Positions 3,566 to 57,581 of a stretch of 64,000 nucleotides of DNA are shown piece by piece. The translations under genes were made by a program, and so were the position numbers. The stretch's first letter is position 1. The number at the start of each line of letters is the position of its first letter. The notes under the pieces were generated by a model, which was given only the letters and a program-made list of their open reading frames with translations, searched no databases and was not told the DNA's origin. Origin of the DNA: Elusimicrobiota bacterium (GTDB lineage: Bacteria > CAYTYR01 > UBA6262); the NCBI GenBank assembly GCA_003153935.1, contig PMCA01000011.1, positions 67,912-131,911 on the forward strand, given 5' to 3'.

Positions 3566-5119
3566 TTATTTCCTCTCCTGCTCTATTTTCAACATATTTT
3601 CGCGGGAATATTCCTCGATCCGGCTGGAAGTCAGGATATGAGGCGTGACAAAGATCATCAGGTCGACTTTCTGAACTGTATCGCTGTTTTGCCGGAACAG
3701 GGCCCCCAGCAAGGGAATGCTGCCCAGGATCGGGATCTTATAAGAAACCTTGGATTTGCGGGTGGTGGTCAAACCTCCGATTACCACGGTTTTGCCGTCG
3801 CGCACGTTAACCTTGGTAGAAGCTTTCCGGAGAGATCTTATCGGGATCCCGATGTTTTCCCCGTTCTGGAAGGATACTTCCGGTTCCAGCTCCAGGTTAA
3901 CTACGTTACCCTCTTTAATATGCGGCGTAACGCCCAGGATTATACCGACATCCAGAAATTCTATGGCGTACTGAGGATTACCCTTGGCGTCATAGCCGGA
4001 AAATTGGTTATACGGGAACTTATCGGTTATTTCTATCCTGGCCTTTTCATTGTTGACCACCGTAATGGTGGGATTGGACAGGAGTTCGGCCTTATTGGTA
4101 GTTACCAGCGCGTTGATCATGGCCCGGAATTTATCTGTTACTTCGCCGTAAACCAGGCTAGTGCCCAGGCCCTGCGTAACATAACCCAGATTCTGGGTAT
4201 CCGTAGCTATGGGTGGGGTGTTGTACACGGTATTAAAAGTGAAAGTCTGGCCATGGCTGCCAGGCTGGTAGATCCACTGGGCGCCGATCTGGCTCAAAAC
4301 ATTGGAATTCACTTCAACTAATTCCGCGCTGATGATAACCTGGGGAGTTTCCCGGTCCAATTTCAGCACTAGGTCCGCGATCTTATCCAGAATATTATTC
4401 TGATCCTTAACTACCAAGGAGTTCAGGCTTTCATCCACATCCGCGGCTCCGTCCGAAGACAGGGTCTTGGCGATCTCATCCTTTACTTTGGCCGCGGAGG
4501 CGTATTGCAAGGTGAAAACACGGGTTTGAACTTCGGTGCCGGACCCGGCGGGCCGTTCTGAACCGGCCGATTTCACGTCCAGCGCGTCAATGACATCAAT
4601 GATACGGTTAAAATTCCTATAGGTATCGGAAACTATCAGAACTTTGGTCTCGCGGTCCACGTCGATATTACCTTGCGCGCTTAACACATTGACCACCGTG
4701 GTCTTAGCTTGCAGCGGATCCATGTTCTTGATGTTGAAGATCCGGGTATCGATCTGGGTGGGCAGGAGAGCCGAGATCTCGATAATATTTTTATCCGGGA
4801 AAACCTTATAGGCGAAACCGCTGTTGGTGAGAATGGAGGTCAGCACGTCTTCGATCGGTACATCCTTAAAAAAGAAATTAACCTTGCGGCCCCGAACCTT
4901 GTCCACCAGATAAAAATTTATGTTGTTCTGCTGGGACAGGAGTCGGAGAGCATCGTCCAGGTCGACGTTGCGGAAATCGATGGAGATTTTCTTGGCTCGG
5001 ACCAGATCCCAAAAATTCGGATTGTCCGCGGCCCAAAGCCGGGCCGTCGGCAGCGGCCCCGGTACTATCCAGGAAACCGCCAGGAACAGCGCTATTGCCA
5101 AGATTATTTTTTTATACAT
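3566..5119 (-). CDS. pilQ: Type IV pilus secretin PilQ
   Basis: 517 aa. Signal peptide, N-terminal AMIN/N0-like region, C-terminal secretin domain (VISAELVEVNSN, GGLTTTRKSKVSYKIPILGSIPLLGALFR, LMIFVTPHIL). Confidence 0.85.
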   Translation of the reverse strand: MYKKIILAIALFLAVSWIVPGPLPTARLWAADNPNFWDLVRAKKISIDFRNVDLDDALRLLSQQNNINFYLVDKVRGRKVNFFFKDVPIEDVLTSILTNSGFAYKVFPDKNIIEISALLPTQIDTRIFNIKNMDPLQAKTTVVNVLSAQGNIDVDRETKVLIVSDTYRNFNRIIDVIDALDVKSAGSERPAGSGTEVQTRVFTLQYASAAKVKDEIAKTLSSDGAADVDESLNSLVVKDQNNILDKIADLVLKLDRETPQVIISAELVEVNSNVLSQIGAQWIYQPGSHGQTFTFNTVYNTPPIATDTQNLGYVTQGLGTSLVYGEVTDKFRAMINALVTTNKAELLSNPTITVVNNEKARIEITDKFPYNQFSGYDAKGNPQYAIEFLDVGIILGVTPHIKEGNVVNLELEPEVSFQNGENIGIPIRSLRKASTKVNVRDGKTVVIGGLTTTRKSKVSYKIPILGSIPLLGALFRQNSDTVQKVDLMIFVTPHILTSSRIEEYSRENMLKIEQERK

Positions 5120-10652: not shown

Positions 10653-11861
10653 TTACTTAACCACCTTCATCATATCAAACATCGGCAAGAAGACGCTGGC
10701 CAGCAGGAAGCCCACGGCCGAGCCCACCAGAATCAGGAACACAGGTTCGATCAGAGTAGTAAGCTTTTTAACGCTATAACTGACGTTGGTATCATAAAAA
10801 TCAGCTATCTTGGTGAGCATGGTGTCCAGACTGCCGGATTCTTCGCCGACCGCGATCATCTGGATGGTATCCGGCGGGAATTCCTCACTGATACGCAACG
10901 GCTCAGCGATCTTGCTACCTTCAGTTACGCCTTCCCTGACCCGCCTGATAACCCGGGCGATAATTTCGTTGCCTACAACTTTTTCCACTATCTCCAAAGA
11001 TTCCAGGATAGGTACGCCGCTGGCTGTTAAAGTAGCCAGGGTGCGGGCAAACCTGGCGATGGCTATTTTGCGGGCCAGCACACCCACTACCGGGACCTTC
11101 AACAGGTATTTATCAAACATCAGGGTGCCGGCGGGAGTGGCAAAATACCATTTCAGCGTGACCCAGACCCCGATAAAACCGGCGATAATTACATACCAGA
11201 ATTTCCGGACTATCTGGCTGAAAATAAATACTATCTGCGTCGGCATCGGTAATTTGACGCCGGCTTTCAGGAATACATCAACGAACATCGGGATGAGAAA
11301 GATGGACAGGAACATGATCACGGAGAACCCGACTATCACCAGGATGATGGGATAAACCATCGCGCCTTTTATTTTTTCTTCCAGGTCCGCCTGGTGTTCG
11401 GCGAAAATGGCCAGACGGTTCAAGACCGTATCCAGGGTGCCGCTGACCTCGCCGGCATGTACCATGTGGATCGTCAATTTATTGAAGACCCGCGGATGCT
11501 TGGCCAAGGCGTCGGAAAAAGTGCCGCCGGCCTCGATACCGCGGTAGACGTCCTGGATGATCTCCCGGAACTTGCGGTTTTCCACCTGTTTGGTCAAGGT
11601 ACGCAAACTGGTCAGTAATGACAAGCCCGCACCAATCATATTGGCTAACTGTACGTTAAAAAGGATCAGGTCCTCGTTCTTTACTTTGACAAACCTGTCG
11701 CCAAAACCGAGCTTGATCCCGGATTTTTGTTCCGTGATATCGGTTACAAAATAGCCGATGCTTCCTAATTTGGACGCCAAGGCTTCCCGGTTCTTGGCTT
11801 CCATCACGCCTTTTATCTGTTTGCCCATTTCGTCCCGGGCTTTATAAACGAAAACTGCCAT
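10653..11861 (-). CDS. pilC: Type IV pilus inner-membrane platform protein PilC (GspF family)
   Basis: 402 aa. Two GspF repeats, three TM segments, typical PilC N-terminus. Confidence 0.9.
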   Translation of the reverse strand: MAVFVYKARDEMGKQIKGVMEAKNREALASKLGSIGYFVTDITEQKSGIKLGFGDRFVKVKNEDLILFNVQLANMIGAGLSLLTSLRTLTKQVENRKFREIIQDVYRGIEAGGTFSDALAKHPRVFNKLTIHMVHAGEVSGTLDTVLNRLAIFAEHQADLEEKIKGAMVYPIILVIVGFSVIMFLSIFLIPMFVDVFLKAGVKLPMPTQIVFIFSQIVRKFWYVIIAGFIGVWVTLKWYFATPAGTLMFDKYLLKVPVVGVLARKIAIARFARTLATLTASGVPILESLEIVEKVVGNEIIARVIRRVREGVTEGSKIAEPLRISEEFPPDTIQMIAVGEESGSLDTMLTKIADFYDTNVSYSVKKLTTLIEPVFLILVGSAVGFLLASVFLPMFDMMKVVK

Positions 11862-30226: not shown

Positions 30227-30370
30227 ATATCCTCCTGCCGATCAACTACTCCCCTAATATAAATATACCACTAAATCTCGTCTATATCAATGTATCATTT
30301 ACGGGGTATTGTACTCCAAGTAGAGGCTAAAAAGCAAGGATAATTGATAAATAAAATGGACAAAAAAATA

Positions 30371-30458
30371 CGGAGAGACAGGGATTCGAACCCTGGGTGA
30401 GGTCACCCCCACATACGCTTTCCAGGCGTACGCCTTCAACCACTCGGCCATCTCTCCA
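30371..30458 (-). tRNA. tRNA-Ser (anticodon GGA)
   Basis: GGAGAGATGGCCGAGTGGTTGAAGGCG-TACGC-CTGGAAA-GCGTA + long variable arm + GGTTCGAATCC T-loop. 88 nt. No encoded CCA. Confidence 0.8.
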
Positions 30459-30482
30459 TTTAGGATATTGGTATTATATTAT

Positions 30483-30572
30483 TGGCGGAGGCGGAAGGAT
30501 TTGAACCTTCGGTCCGGTTACCCGGACTCCGGTTTTCGAGACCGGTGCACTCAACCACTATGCGACGCCTCC
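30483..30572 (-). tRNA. tRNA-Ser (anticodon CGA), CCA encoded
   Basis: GGAGGCGTCGCATAGTGGTTGAGTGC-ACCGG-TCTCGAA-AACCGG... long variable arm, GGTTCAAATCC T-loop, terminal CCA. Confidence 0.8.
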
Positions 30573-30583
30573 AAAGTTATTAT

Positions 30584-30667
30584 CCAGTTTTCCCTCCCTT
30601 GAAGTCTTCGACTTCATACAGGGAGGACAGGCGAGACTGGCGCCTTCAACCACTCGGCCACCCTTCC
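30584..30667 (-). other. tRNA-Ser-like 5'-half fragment (acceptor + D-arm + anticodon stem) with a 40-nt hairpin at the anticodon-loop position. No T-arm or 3' acceptor strand.
   Basis: Minus strand: GGAAGGGTGGCCGAGTGGTTGAAGGCG-CCAGT-CTCG[CCTGTCCTCCCTGTATGAAGTCGAAGACTTCAAGGGAGGG]AAA-ACTGG. The 5' half is near-identical to tRNA-Ser(GGA). Confidence 0.4.
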
Positions 30668-30676
30668 AACTCTACT

Positions 30677-30736
30677 CCGGTTTTCCCCCCGTTGAAGTCT
30701 GTCGACTTCAATACACGGGGGACAGGCGAGACCGGT
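30677..30736 (-). other. tRNA-Ser(CGA)-like anticodon-arm fragment with the same hairpin at the anticodon-loop position
   Basis: Minus strand: ACCGGT-CTCG[CCTGTCCCCCGTGTATTGAAGTCGACAGACTTCAACGGGGGG]AAA-ACCGGAGT. The flanks match the anticodon arm of the real tRNA-Ser(CGA) (ACCGGTCTCGAAAACCGGAGT). Confidence 0.35.
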
Positions 30737-30738
30737 AA

Positions 30739-31194
30739 CTATTTTCGTTTTTCTTTAAAAAACTCTTTTATTAACTCTCTGCATTCTTTTTCTAAAATAC
30801 CAGCATGAACCTTAATGCGATGGTTTAATTTTTTATTACCGGTCACATTTAATACACTGCCGCAAGCCCCGGCTTTCGGGTCTTTGGCTCCAAAATGCAG
30901 TTCCCTGACCCTGGCGTTTACCAATGCTCCTGCGCACATGGCGCAGGGCTCGATGGTTACATAAAGGATGACCTCGGGGAGACGGTAATTGCCGATCTTT
31001 TTGGCCGCTCTACGCAAGGTAACTATTTCCGCATGGGCAGCGGGGTCCGTTGTCATGATCGGGCAGTTATGCCCACGGGCGATTATTTTCCCGTCGAGAA
31101 CTGCCACTGCCCCAATTGGGACCTCATTTTTTCGCTTCGCTTTGCGGGCTTCTTTAAGCGCTGCTTGCATGAAATATTCATTTGTTCTTATCAT
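30739..31194 (-). CDS. tadA: tRNA adenosine(34) deaminase TadA
   Basis: CMP/dCMP deaminase Zn motifs HAEI and PCAMCAGAL. Start taken at MIRTNEYF (31194), because the ORF track extension reads through the tRNA-Arg gene. Confidence 0.85.
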   Translation of the reverse strand: MIRTNEYFMQAALKEARKAKRKNEVPIGAVAVLDGKIIARGHNCPIMTTDPAAHAEIVTLRRAAKKIGNYRLPEVILYVTIEPCAMCAGALVNARVRELHFGAKDPKAGACGSVLNVTGNKKLNHRIKVHAGILEKECRELIKEFFKEKRK

Positions 31195-31207
31195 CGAATA
31201 AAAAAAG

Positions 31208-31281
31208 CGCGCCCTACAGGATTCGAACCTGTGGCCTACTGATTCGTAGTCAGTCGCTCTATCCAACTGAGCTAAGGGCGC
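31208..31281 (-). tRNA. tRNA-Arg (anticodon ACG)
   Basis: GCGCCCTTAGCTCAGTTGGATAGAGCG-ACTGA-CTACGAA-TCAGT-AGGCC-ACAGGTTCGAATCCTGT-AGGGCGC-G, 74 nt. Confidence 0.85.
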
Positions 31282-31345
31282 ATGGAAAGTCCCCTATGGG
31301 ACTAGTACATTATATATTGTTTCGTGGCAGGTTTCAAGGAGAATT

Positions 31346-56923: not shown

Positions 56924-57229
56924 ATGCCAATAGCCAAGATCAAAGACTGGGAACTGAACACCAAGGCCAACGCGGAGTTTGTTAAAAAATCTATTGATAC
57001 GCAACACTTGAAAATAGGCACCACTAACGGTATTGTACAGGTAGCCGGGGAAATAGTATTTACCGGCGCGAAGATTGACGCCAGTATAGACGCGGAAGTT
57101 ATCAATGTGCTAAAATCGGTGGACCGTATGATCAAGACGATCAACGGGGTAAAGGATGTTAAATACTCGTTAACTAACTGGCAGAAAACCGGCGGCAACT
57201 GGGGCCGTCGCGCCAAAGAAGTAGGCTGA
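56924..57229 (+). CDS. Small BON-like domain protein, function unknown
   Basis: 101 aa. Pattern NGIVQVAGEIVF...DVKY resembles BON/OsmY-type domains. Weak call. Confidence 0.35.
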   Translation: MPIAKIKDWELNTKANAEFVKKSIDTQHLKIGTTNGIVQVAGEIVFTGAKIDASIDAEVINVLKSVDRMIKTINGVKDVKYSLTNWQKTGGNWGRRAKEVG

Positions 57230-57234
57230 TAATT

Positions 57235-57313
57235 GGAGGCGTCGCATAGCGGTTGAACCGGTCTTGCCTGTCCCCCTGTCCTGAAACCGTAGGTTTCAAG
57301 GGGGGAAAACCGG
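57235..57313 (+). other. tRNA-Ser-like 5'-half fragment with ~40-nt hairpin at the anticodon-loop position, immediately upstream of tRNA-Ser(TGA)
   Basis: GGAGGCGTCGCATAGCGGTTGA-ACCGG-TCTTG[CCTGTCCCCCTGTCCTGAAACCGTAGGTTTCAAGGGGGG]AAA-ACCGG. The 5' half is near-identical to tRNA-Ser(CGA) at 30483-30572. The anticodon nucleotides (TGA) match the adjacent real tRNA. Confidence 0.4.
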
Positions 57314-57321
57314 AAAGCAAT

Positions 57322-57408
57322 GGAGGGGTGACCGAGTGGTTTAAGGTGCTGGTCTTGAAAACCAGTGTGGGCTAACGCTCACCGGGGGTTCAAATCCCTC
57401 CCCCTCCG
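57322..57408 (+). tRNA. tRNA-Ser (anticodon TGA)
   Basis: GGAGGGGTGACCGAGTGGTTTAAGGTG-CTGGT-CTTGAAA-ACCAG + long variable arm + GGTTCAAATCC. 87 nt. Confidence 0.8.
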
Positions 57409-57453
57409 ATTAAAACAAAAACATAATAGTAATGATTTTTTAACCGATAATTT

Positions 57454-57544
57454 GGAGAGGTGGCCGAGTGGTTGAAGGCAGCCGCCTGCTAAGCGGTTGT
57501 ACGGGTGAAAACCTGTACCCTGGGTTCGAATCCCAGCCTCTCCG
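57454..57544 (+). tRNA. tRNA-Ser (anticodon GCT)
   Basis: GGAGAGGTGGCCGAGTGGTTGAAGGCAG-CCGC-CTGCTAA-GCGG + long variable arm + GGTTCGAATCC. 91 nt. Confidence 0.8.
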
Positions 57545-57581
57545 TTTTAATTTTTAATCCACCCGAACATAGGGAGCCGGA

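What the first reader, a model, noticed from the sequence alone, without database searches (positions are those of the whole stretch)
57235..57313. Third copy of the tRNA-Ser 5'-half + anticodon-loop hairpin, on the opposite strand next to serS and tRNA-Ser(TGA)
It has the same architecture as the locus at 30.6 kb. The 5' half is almost identical to tRNA-Ser(CGA), but the loop nucleotides around the hairpin spell TGA, matching the real tRNA-Ser(TGA) 9 nt downstream. It sits 6 bp after the stop of a small BON-like gene. The serS gene, which charges these tRNAs, lies about 320 bp upstream. An archease-like gene lies about 1.6 kb upstream. Archease is the activator of the RtcB RNA ligase. A link to tRNA half processing or ligation is purely speculative but testable.
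Basis: partly seen in the sequence, partly recalled or inferred. Interest (0 to 1): 0.65.

Follow-up and report, generated by a model that had tools for sequence, protein, structure and literature searches.

The report
Hairpin-split tRNA-Ser gene remnant before tRNA-Ser
The feature is the left-over front part of an old serine-tRNA gene whose anticodon loop carries a small, unusually well-preserved hairpin, sitting just ahead of the working tRNA that replaced it; it is not a tRNA half waiting to be ligated, but the hairpin appears to be kept by selection for a role still unknown.

Summary
Window 57235-57313 (+) holds a tRNA-Ser 5' portion. A 39-nt hairpin (H) splits its anticodon loop (CTTG|H|AAA) between positions 35 and 36. 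Two more copies lie at 30735-30677 and 30667-30584 (-).

The RtcB/archease tRNA-half idea is not supported:
- No unit has a 3' half.
- No rtcB lies in the window.
- Archease-serS synteny also occurs in relatives that lack the element.

Comparison with five related genomes (an Omnitrophota-like clade) shows how the unit arose.
- It is the remnant of the ancestral tRNA-Ser(UGA) gene of this locus, which is still intact in relatives L060, L061 and L058.
- That gene was replaced by a different complete tRNA-Ser(UGA).
- In L080 the 3' end of the old gene still lies beyond the new tRNA.

H is not found outside tRNA-Ser(NGA) remnants in the DNA examined. There are 9 copies, at 2 loci, in 4 genomes. 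H keeps its fold through six covarying pairs and sense-strand G-U pairs, and it is far more conserved than neutral sites.

My best reading is that H is a selected, transcribed structure at the mRNA-tRNA junction. The main rival is a site-specific selfish mini-insertion. No known RNA family matches. Function is inferred, not shown.

The parts
57235..57257 (+). Unit C: orphan acceptor 5' strand plus damaged D arm. It is of the GGAGGCG type and lacks GTGC, the 3' strand of the D stem.
   Evidence: 22/22 identical to the start of tRNA-Ser(TGA) in relatives L058/L060.
57258..57266 (+). Unit C: anticodon-stem 5' strand CCGGT, then the loop start CTTG (positions 32-35).
57267..57305 (+). Unit C: hairpin H, a 39-nt insertion between anticodon positions 35 and 36. 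It forms two 6-7 bp helices separated by an internal loop.
57306..57313 (+). Unit C: loop end AAA, then anticodon-stem 3' strand ACCGG.
   Evidence: This strand covaries with the 5' strand across copies (GC vs AU at pair 5:60).
57314..57321 (+). 8-nt spacer AAAGCAAT. It is not conserved in the ortholog L080.
57322..57408 (+). Intact tRNA-Ser(TGA), GGAGGGG type. This is the gene that replaced the old one.
57453..57545 (+). Intact tRNA-Ser(GCT). No unit lies in front of it.
56924..57229 (+). 101-aa ORF with no Pfam match. Its stop codon lies 5 nt before unit C. It serves as the clade marker used to fetch relatives.
30677..30735 (-). Unit A: anticodon arm (CCGGT CTCG | H | AAA ACCGG) without a 5' half. 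It starts 3 nt after the tadA stop codon.
30584..30667 (-). Unit B: GGAAGGG-type 5' half, then the anticodon arm (CCAGT CTCG | H | AAA ACTGG).
30483..30572 (-). Intact tRNA-Ser(CGA), GGAGGCG type. It is 95.6% identical over 90 nt to the tRNA-Ser(TGA) of relatives.
30370..30458 (-). Intact tRNA-Ser(GGA).
30739..31194 (-). tadA (tRNA adenosine-34 deaminase). It is preceded by its substrate gene tRNA-Arg(ACG) at 31207-31281 and by a strong promoter-like site at 31337-31309.

Best explanation
**Origin (well supported).** Unit C is the 5' remnant of the tRNA-Ser(UGA) gene that originally sat right behind the 101-aa ORF. The remnant runs from the acceptor 5' strand through the complete anticodon stem.
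- A 39-43-nt hairpin (H) was inserted cleanly into its anticodon loop between nt 35 and 36.
- Everything 3' of the anticodon stem was replaced by a short spacer plus a different, complete tRNA-Ser(UGA) gene.
- The same thing happened at the tadA locus to tRNA-Ser(CGA) genes.

**Present role (inferred).** H, with the anticodon stem it extends, is not decaying like the rest of the remnant.
- It is kept by purifying selection as a folded structure on the tRNA-sense strand.
- Both loci appear to be co-transcribed ORF-tRNA units.
- I therefore take it to act as RNA, as a cis element at the junction between the upstream mRNA (tadA, or serS plus the 101-aa ORF) and the tRNA-Ser(NGA) precursor.
- Most likely it is a processing or stability hairpin, or a protein-binding hairpin. 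One possibility is a double-strand-specific RNase site that leaves a protective 3' stem on the mRNA once the tRNA is cut out.
- It is not a tRNA half and is not joined to anything.
For: **Origin**
- Relatives L060 and L061 have an intact GGAGGCG-type tRNA-Ser(TGA) after the same ORF and no unit.
- L058 has one unit plus that tRNA. L056 has two units.
- L080-L083 have the same state as the window. There, the relic GGTTC..CCGCCTCCG of the old 3' end lies just beyond the new tRNA.
- The tadA locus of a relative (L084) has tRNA-Ser(CGA) directly after tadA and no unit. L037 has two units there.
- The 3' strand of the anticodon stem after H covaries with the 5' strand before it (CCAGT/ACTGG vs CCGGT/ACCGG). 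In two copies it continues with AGT of the old variable arm. So H is a clean insertion.

**Structure**
- Across 9 copies, 98% of cells are paired and 6 pairs have changes on both sides.
- Slid controls give 0-1 such pairs, and 0/500 shuffles reach the observed covariation score.
- G-U pairs are tolerated only on the tRNA-sense strand.

**Selection**
- Four-fold sites are saturated (0.30-0.40 identity) between the window and all relatives. They are 0.55-0.66 identical between L062 and L073.
- Yet H is 42/42 identical between L062 and L073, and H plus the following 58 nt is 98% identical. The neighbouring serS-ORF intergenic spacer has diverged beyond recognition.
- H of unit B and of L037 unit 2 differ by a single 1-nt indel over about 40 nt.
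- Meanwhile the D arms of the same units carry deletions and insertions.

**Transcription**
- No promoter-like or terminator-like site lies in or between the units.
- A strong promoter-like site precedes tRNA-Arg-tadA.
Against: - No expression or RNA-end data are available.
- The function is inferred only from conservation and position.
- The element has been lost, or was never present, in three relatives: L060, L061 and the tadA locus of L084. It is therefore dispensable.
- The orthologs winC and L080 are only about 74% identical in H. L080 has a mismatch in helix 2 and a mutated loop, which looks like relaxed constraint.
- Nearly identical H copies sit in different tRNA backgrounds in two deeply diverged genomes (unit B vs L037 unit 2). 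That is easier to explain if H can move.
- A mere stability hairpin would not need the sequence-level conservation seen here.
- Only 9 copies from 4 genomes were available, so the covariation statistics are shallow.
Confidence: 0.45

Rival explanations
1. H is a small selfish insertion element, comparable to MITE, REP or attC elements and moved as a DNA hairpin. It targets the anticodon loop of tRNA-Ser(NGA) genes at ...TCTYG^AAAAC... The units are dead genes, tolerated because a second tRNA-Ser copy is present, and they have no role of their own.
For: - H sits at exactly the same loop position in two unrelated tRNA-Ser backbones, GGAAGGG type and GGAGGCG type.
- Nearly identical H copies lie in different backbones in two genomes whose synonymous sites are saturated.
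- There is presence/absence polymorphism among close relatives.
- Other small palindromes have inserted into the D loops of orphans (L073 unit 1, L037 units 1 and 2).
- The fold is maintained by compensatory changes, as expected if the structure is needed for mobility.
Against: - No copy was found outside tRNA-Ser remnants. The searches covered 64 kb of window and 173 kb of loci, one genome per species of 185,579 species, a metagenome collection, viral contigs, plasmids and phages.
- There is no target-site duplication, and no transposase or recombinase in the window. tblastn with the relatives' recombinase gave only antisense-tRNA hits.
- Orthologous copies and the adjacent spacer are 98% conserved in situ where neutral sites are 55-66% identical. 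Dead insertions would not show this.
- It does not explain why every unit lacks its 3' half, even the youngest one (L056 unit 2), whose 5' half is 36/36 identical to the live tRNA.
Confidence: 0.3
2. The unit is an attL-type junction. An integrative element that carries its own tRNA-Ser recombined with the anticodon loop of the resident gene, as in tRNA-dependent lysogeny. H plus the following sequence would then be the arm of the element. The body of the element was later deleted.
For: - In L056 and L058 a large serine recombinase island (recombinase, HTH, type I restriction-modification) starts right after the tRNA-Ser that follows the units.
- In L080 the old 3' end lies beyond the new tRNA, as if the new tRNA had been inserted into the old gene.
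- Whole tRNAs, not only halves, were exchanged.
- There is a precedent: phage integration that destroys a host tRNA and supplies a replacement (PMC10865867).
Against: - The stem strand after H belongs to the old tRNA. It covaries with the 5' strand and continues with AGT, so H is an internal insertion, not an arm of foreign DNA.
- The conserved junction of the recombinase islands is at the tRNA 3' end (CCG|CCA-GTGATACCAATTCGAACC in L062, L073, L076, L074).
- A more distant relative has the same recombinase next to tRNA-Ser(TGA) with no unit.
- No island, recombinase or displaced 3' half is present in the window.
- No displaced 3' half lies within 10 kb downstream in L062.
Confidence: 0.1
3. 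The units are tRNA halves, or intron-containing or split tRNA-Ser genes, whose RNA is cut and then joined by RtcB with archease.
For: - Archease is encoded 1.6 kb upstream.
- In a more distant relative the order is archease-RtcB-serS-tRNA-Ser.
- H sits in the anticodon loop, where tRNA introns sit.
Against: - There is no 3' half anywhere in the window.
- Acceptor strands are incompatible with the neighbouring tRNAs.
- Every genome has an intact, uninterrupted tRNA-Ser with the same anticodon right next to the unit.
- D arms are damaged or absent.
- No bulge-helix-bulge motif can be drawn around H.
- No group I core is present: H is 39-43 nt, and Rfam gives no hit even at E <= 10.
- No rtcB lies in the window.
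- Archease-serS synteny is also found without units.
Confidence: 0.03

Closest known systems
Displaced tRNA-gene fragments at integration hot spots (tDNA relics, as catalogued by Islander, PMC4383910; mis-annotated fragments discussed in PMC9897764)
   Same: - It is a partial tRNA gene next to an intact one of the same isoacceptor.
- The locus carries integrated islands in relatives.
- Fragments accumulate serially.
- Typical 3'-end relics of tRNA-Ser(GCT) are present in the same relatives.
   Different: - The fragments here are 5' portions that directly abut the live gene. They are not 3' portions at the far end of an island.
- They all carry the same conserved hairpin inside the anticodon loop.
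- No island or integrase is present in the window.
tRNA-dependent lysogeny of mycobacteriophages (Guerrero-Bustamante and Hatfull 2024, PMC10865867)
   Same: A resident tRNA gene is destroyed and its function is taken over by an incoming tRNA gene of the same isotype placed beside it.
   Different: - That system uses a tyrosine integrase with a 10-bp core in the 3' half of tRNA-Lys, and the prophage stays in place.
- Here no element is present, and the break is in the anticodon loop and is filled by a hairpin.
- The recombinase islands seen in relatives join at the tRNA 3' end.
Intercistronic RNase III processing hairpins (for example phage T7 R1.1) and 3' stabiliser stem-loops of bacterial mRNAs. 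This comparison rests on my own knowledge and was not tested.
   Same: - It is a roughly 20-bp interrupted helix with an asymmetric internal loop between two co-transcribed genes.
- It would leave a stem at the 3' end of the upstream mRNA.
   Different: - Cleavage has not been shown.
- The element is built on a tRNA anticodon stem.
- It shows sequence-level conservation that a mere stabiliser would not need.
Small palindromic insertion elements (REP/BIME, MITEs, integron attC sites)
   Same: It is a 40-nt imperfect palindrome whose fold is kept by compensatory changes and which lies in non-coding DNA.
   Different: - It is not dispersed: only 2-4 copies per genome were seen, all in one kind of target.
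- There are no terminal repeats, no target duplication and no associated enzyme.
Group I introns in bacterial tRNA anticodon loops
   Same: The insertion site is the anticodon loop of a tRNA gene. A genuine example occurs in a relative (L076, 90.5 bits).
   Different: - H is 39-43 nt and has no catalytic core.
- The host genes are truncated.
- There is no Rfam hit.

Membership tests
tRNA (Rfam RF00005 / ARAGORN) | Complete cloverleaf with T arm and acceptor 3' strand. | tested here: not met
   - ARAGORN and Rfam call only the six intact tRNAs.
- There is no tRNA hit on the unit even at E <= 10.
- There are no orphan T arms.
Split or intron-containing tRNA (archaeal type, ligated by RtcB) | A separate or downstream 3' half with a complementary acceptor strand. 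| tested here: not met
   blastn of all tRNA-Ser sequences against the window finds no 3'-half fragment. A T-arm scan finds only the intact tRNAs.
Split or intron-containing tRNA (archaeal type, ligated by RtcB) | Bulge-helix-bulge motif at the exon-intron junctions. | tested here: not met
   The fold shows an 8-nt/3-nt asymmetric internal loop between the anticodon stem and helix 2. No 3-4-3 bulge-helix-bulge is present.
Split or intron-containing tRNA (archaeal type, ligated by RtcB) | RtcB ligase encoded in the genome. | tested here: inconclusive
   tblastn with the RtcB of L076 finds nothing in the 64-kb window. The rest of the genome could not be searched. Archease is present.
Group I intron in a tRNA anticodon loop | Catalytic core (P3-P9), about 200 nt or more, matching RF00028. 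| tested here: not met
   H is 39-43 nt and gives no Rfam hit. RF00028 does detect a genuine intron in relative L076.
Integration relic / attL of an element integrated in a tRNA gene | Integrase-bearing island bounded by the regenerated tRNA and its displaced fragment. | tested here: not met
   - The window has no island, recombinase or displaced 3' fragment.
- In relatives the recombinase island abuts the tRNA 3' end, not the unit.
tRNA-dependent lysogeny | [quoted passage not shown] | tested here: inconclusive
   A same-anticodon replacement tRNA lies next to each destroyed gene. However, no element could be tied to it, and the far ends of the islands were out of reach.
MITE / REP-like repeat | Many dispersed copies per genome, with terminal inverted repeats or target duplication. 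| tested here: not met
   - The window has only 3 copies, all in tRNA-Ser remnants.
- Genome-collection scans found only one other genome, again at tRNA-Ser.
- There is no duplication at the insertion point.
Intrinsic terminator | GC-rich hairpin followed by a U tract. | tested here: not met
   H is followed by AAAAC. The scan finds no terminator-like site in the units on either strand.
Conserved structured RNA motif (generic criterion) | Base pairs maintained by compensatory substitutions, and conservation above the neutral level. | tested here: met
   - 98% of cells are paired, 6 pairs covary, and the controls are near zero. RNAalifold gives the same structure.
- H is 42/42 identical where four-fold sites are 0.55-0.66 identical.

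The most novel reading that the evidence does not exclude
The hairpin-bearing anticodon arm is a previously undescribed selected RNA module, exapted from dead tRNA-Ser genes. Under this reading it is recognised by a specific RNase or RNA-binding protein at the mRNA-tRNA junction. Alternatively it is the footprint of a new kind of site-specific element that targets the tRNA-Ser anticodon loop and drives serial replacement of tRNA-Ser genes. Either would be a new RNA or DNA element class restricted to an Omnitrophota-like clade.
Probability: 0.3. Interest if true: 0.65.

Novelty: new variant of a known kind. Interest (0 to 1): 0.45.

Why it matters
- It shows tRNA-gene turnover caught in the act. 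Three backbones of tRNA-Ser swap places and anticodons between two loci, and each replacement leaves a 5' remnant.
- The remnants share a small hairpin that resists decay over a divergence at which synonymous sites are saturated. Such a sequence is either a new cis-acting RNA at mRNA-tRNA junctions or a new, extremely target-specific insertion element. Neither is described in Rfam or in the papers I could find.
- For annotation, it is a warning. These units resemble tRNA halves placed next to archease and serS, yet they are not substrates for ligation.

Tried and rejected
1. **Known RNA family.** Rfam finds only the six tRNAs at gathering scores. At E <= 10 it finds nothing on unit C and only chance-level hits on units A and B.
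2. **Wider distribution.**
   - Pattern scan of one genome per species: 45 hits, 44 by chance, only L037 real.
   - Metagenome contigs: 10 chance hits.
   - Viral contigs: 0 hits.
   - Plasmids and phages by blastn: no match.
3. **Serine-recombinase scar.**
   - The recombinase sits beside the tRNA in L056 and L058, but its conserved junction is at the tRNA 3' end. It also occurs without units in L076.
   - No displaced 3' half was found within 10 kb.
   - The recombinase has no relatives in the viral collection.
4. **Decayed 3' half in the 50-nt spacer of L058/L056.** Its alignment to the tRNA 3' half is no better than that of shuffled sequence.
5. **Promoter or terminator inside the unit.** None was predicted.
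6. **Chimeric tRNA made of an orphan 5' half plus the live 3' half.** The acceptor strands mismatch. The pairing of the unit's 5' end with the tRNA 3' end in the minimum-energy fold follows from all tRNA-Ser genes starting with GGAGG.
7. **rtcB in the window.** None was found.
8. **Literature.** Searches for anticodon-loop palindromic insertions or Omnitrophota tRNA introns gave nothing relevant.

Full report
**1. The observation**

Window 57235-57313 (+) reads GGAGGCGTCGCATAGCGGTTGAA-CCGGT-CTTG-[39-nt hairpin]-AAA-ACCGG. An 8-nt spacer follows, then an intact tRNA-Ser(TGA) at 57322-57408 and tRNA-Ser(GCT) at 57453-57545.

Two more copies lie on the minus strand behind tadA.
- Unit A (30735-30677) has only the anticodon arm.
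- Unit B (30667-30584) has a 5' half of another type, GGAAGGG.
- tRNA-Ser(CGA) and tRNA-Ser(GGA) follow them.

In all three copies the hairpin (H) sits between anticodon positions 35 and 36. The split loop spells the anticodon of the tRNA that follows.

The evidence that this is real:
- The hairpin pattern occurs 3 times, against 0 in 100 shuffles.
- A covariance model scores the copies at 72-87 bits and finds nothing else in the window.
- Unit C is identical in ten independent contigs of the same species.

The 101-aa ORF has no Pfam match, so the label 'BON-like' is unsupported.

**2. What it is not**

| Candidate | Result |
|---|---|
| tRNA | Not detected by ARAGORN or Rfam, even at E <= 10 |
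| Split or half tRNA | No orphan T arm or 3' half in the window |
| Terminator or promoter | No such site in the units |
| Any Rfam family | No match |
| RtcB substrate | No rtcB in the 64 kb |

**3. Relatives**

The 101-aa ORF defines a narrow clade of 17 homologs at 74-92% identity. Sources name the relatives' recombinase and TadA homologs as Candidatus Omnitrophota. One record title says 'Clostridia'.

State of the locus behind the 101-aa ORF:

| Locus | State |
|---|---|
| L060, L061 | 130-170 nt of unrelated spacer, then an intact GGAGGCG-type tRNA-Ser(TGA); no unit |
| L058 (= L062) | one unit, a 50-nt spacer, then that tRNA |
| L056 (= L073) | two units, then that tRNA |
| L080-L083 | as in the window: a GGAGGCG-type orphan with H, a 6-nt spacer, then a GGAGGGA-type tRNA-Ser(TGA) |

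In L080-L083 the new tRNA is immediately followed by TTGGTTCCCCGCCTCCG. That is a relic of the 3' end of the old gene.

State of the tadA locus:

| Locus | State |
|---|---|
| L084 | GGAAGGG-type tRNA-Ser(CGA) 1 nt after the stop codon; no unit |
| L037 | two units before that tRNA |

The window's own tRNA-Ser(CGA) is 95.6% identical over 90 nt to the relatives' tRNA-Ser(TGA).

So three tRNA-Ser backbones have exchanged places and anticodons between the two loci. Unit C is the 5' remnant of the ancestral occupant of its locus.

The stem strand after H covaries with the strand before it (CCAGT/ACTGG vs CCGGT/ACCGG). In unit A and in L080 it continues with AGT of the old variable arm. H is therefore a clean insertion into a once-continuous gene, whose 3' part was replaced by a spacer plus a new tRNA.

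**4. The hairpin is constrained**

Structure, over nine copies (eight distinct):
- 98% of cells in the three helices are paired.
- Six pairs show changes on both sides. One helix-2 pair is also lost on both strands together in unit C.
- Partner-slid controls give 0-1 such pairs.
- None of 500 shuffles reaches the observed covariation score.
- RNAalifold recovers the same structure.
- The G-U pairs would be A-C mismatches on the other strand, so the fold belongs to the tRNA-sense strand.

Neutral divergence, for comparison:
- Four-fold sites of serS and the ORF are saturated (0.30-0.40 identity) between the window and every relative.
- They are 0.55-0.66 identical between L062 and L073.

Conservation of H against that background:
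- H is 42/42 identical between L062 and L073.
- H plus the next 58 nt is 98% identical, while the serS-ORF spacer nearby is unalignable.
- H of unit B and of L037 unit 2 differ by a single 1-nt indel over about 40 nt.

The tRNA-like 5' parts of the same units are damaged:
- a 4-nt deletion in unit C;
- hairpin insertions in three D loops;
- complete loss in unit A.

The part that is kept is the anticodon arm with H.

**5. How it most likely works**

Both loci look like ORF-tRNA co-transcription units. No promoter-like or terminator-like site lies between the ORF and the tRNAs, and a strong promoter-like site lies upstream of tRNA-Arg-tadA.

The first unit always begins 1-14 nt after the stop codon. 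That is where the original tRNA began.

I therefore commit to this reading. H, with the anticodon stem, is a selected RNA structure at the mRNA-tRNA junction. It is probably a processing or stability hairpin, or a protein-binding hairpin.

What is shown and what is inferred:
- Shown: the origin, the fold, and the conservation above the neutral level.
- Inferred: transcription, the RNA level of action, and the molecular role.

**6. Rivals**

(a) *A selfish, site-specific mini-insertion.*
- For: the same loop position is used in two different backbones. Near-identical H copies lie in different backbones in deeply diverged genomes. Presence/absence polymorphism is seen.
- Against: no copies elsewhere and in-situ conservation. 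It also fails to explain the missing 3' half even in the youngest unit.

(b) *An attL scar of an element that brings its own tRNA*, as in tRNA-dependent lysogeny (PMC10865867).
- For: recombinase islands follow the tRNA in L056 and L058.
- Against: their conserved junction is at the tRNA 3' end. The same recombinase family sits beside tRNA-Ser(TGA) without any unit in L076.

Archease-serS synteny exists without units.

**7. Novelty and verdict**

tRNA-gene fragments at integration hot spots are ordinary. A conserved, covarying hairpin embedded in the anticodon loop of serially retained 5' remnants is not described in Rfam or in the papers searched.

I classify it as a new variant of a known kind, of moderate interest. 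The sample is small (4 genomes, 9 copies), and expression is untested.

Noticed in passing
window 30483-30572 (-) compared with L062:10448-10537 and L060:2974-3060: The window's tRNA-Ser(CGA) is 95.6% identical over 90 nt to the tRNA-Ser(TGA) of relatives. The native GGAAGGG-type tRNA-Ser(CGA) survives only as orphan B. This looks like an anticodon shift (T34 to C) combined with relocation of a tRNA gene between loci.
   Followed up: partly
L076:11417-11677 (-), within about 11330-11700: A group I intron (RF00028, 90.5 bits) interrupts the anticodon loop of a tRNA gene. The exons read GGGCCGC...CCGCCCTT | ... | AAGGCGGG...CACCA, probably tRNA-Lys(UUU). It lies just upstream of an archease-RtcB-serS cluster in a more distant relative. 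ARAGORN did not call this tRNA.
   Followed up: partly
L062:10433-12208 (-), L073:10751-12076 (-), L076:5602-7341, L074:10001-11719: - A large serine recombinase family (more than 900 relatives at E <= 1e-30, many named Candidatus Omnitrophota) sits convergently against the 3' end of tRNA-Ser(TGA).
- It has a conserved junction, CCG|CCA(GTG)ATACCAATTCGAACCYTTG.
- The called ORF runs antisense into or through the tRNA.
- The islands carry type I restriction-modification genes with inserted SIR2/DUF87 or HEPN-AbiV genes.
   Followed up: partly
window 30459-30482 (-), directly after tRNA-Ser(CGA): The tRNA is followed by CCAATAATATAATACCAAT. This shares CCA...ATACCAAT with the recombinase-island junction of relatives, so it may be a relic of a lost island.
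   Followed up: no
L037:1566-1846, L084:3115-3267, L060:3680-3850: A conserved non-coding block (GTCYGGC-AAAAAGTGTTTTT-GCC.., AAGAGGAAGGGGTTCAGCGAGCCC, CCCTTGTGGAGCGAAACGAGCTTGCGTAGTGAAGCGACT) lies upstream of tRNA-Ser(GGA) or tRNA-Ser(GCT) in relatives. One internal hairpin is swapped for a different one. It has no Rfam hit and is absent from the window.
   Followed up: partly
L060:2830-2973 and L060:3870-3990; L060:4221-4237 and 4335-4348; L080:2240-2262: - A repeat of about 130 nt ending in GGGGAAAAG..TTTTCCCCTATGG precedes both tRNA-Ser(TGA) and tRNA-Ser(GCT) in L060. The second copy carries the first 7 nt (GGAGGCG) of the other tRNA.
- Short 3'-end fragments of tRNA-Ser(GCT) follow that gene. 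These are ordinary integration relics.
   Followed up: no
L073:10318-10341; L037:1379-1393 and 1245-1290; L060:3087-3125: Small GC-rich palindromes (for example TCCGCC..GGCGGATAAACTCCGCC and CCCGCCGTAGGCGGG) are inserted in the D loops of orphan tRNA halves. They also occur in the spacer next to a tRNA in another genome. They look like REP-type elements.
   Followed up: no
window 31207-31281 (-), 30739-31194 (-), 31309-31337 (-): tRNA-Arg(ACG), the substrate of TadA, lies immediately upstream of tadA under a near-consensus promoter-like site (TTGAAA-17-TATAAT). The same arrangement is seen in L037 and L084.
   Followed up: no
L073:1941-5726: gyrB of this relative encodes 1261 aa with an intein-splicing domain (PF14890). 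The ortholog in L062 is 828 aa.
   Followed up: no
GCA_003154495.1 contigs PMDN01000055.1 (L050) and PMDN01000052.1 (L081): The same MAG holds two different versions of the serS-ORF-tRNA-Ser locus, with ORF products 75% identical. The bin therefore mixes two related organisms.
   Followed up: no
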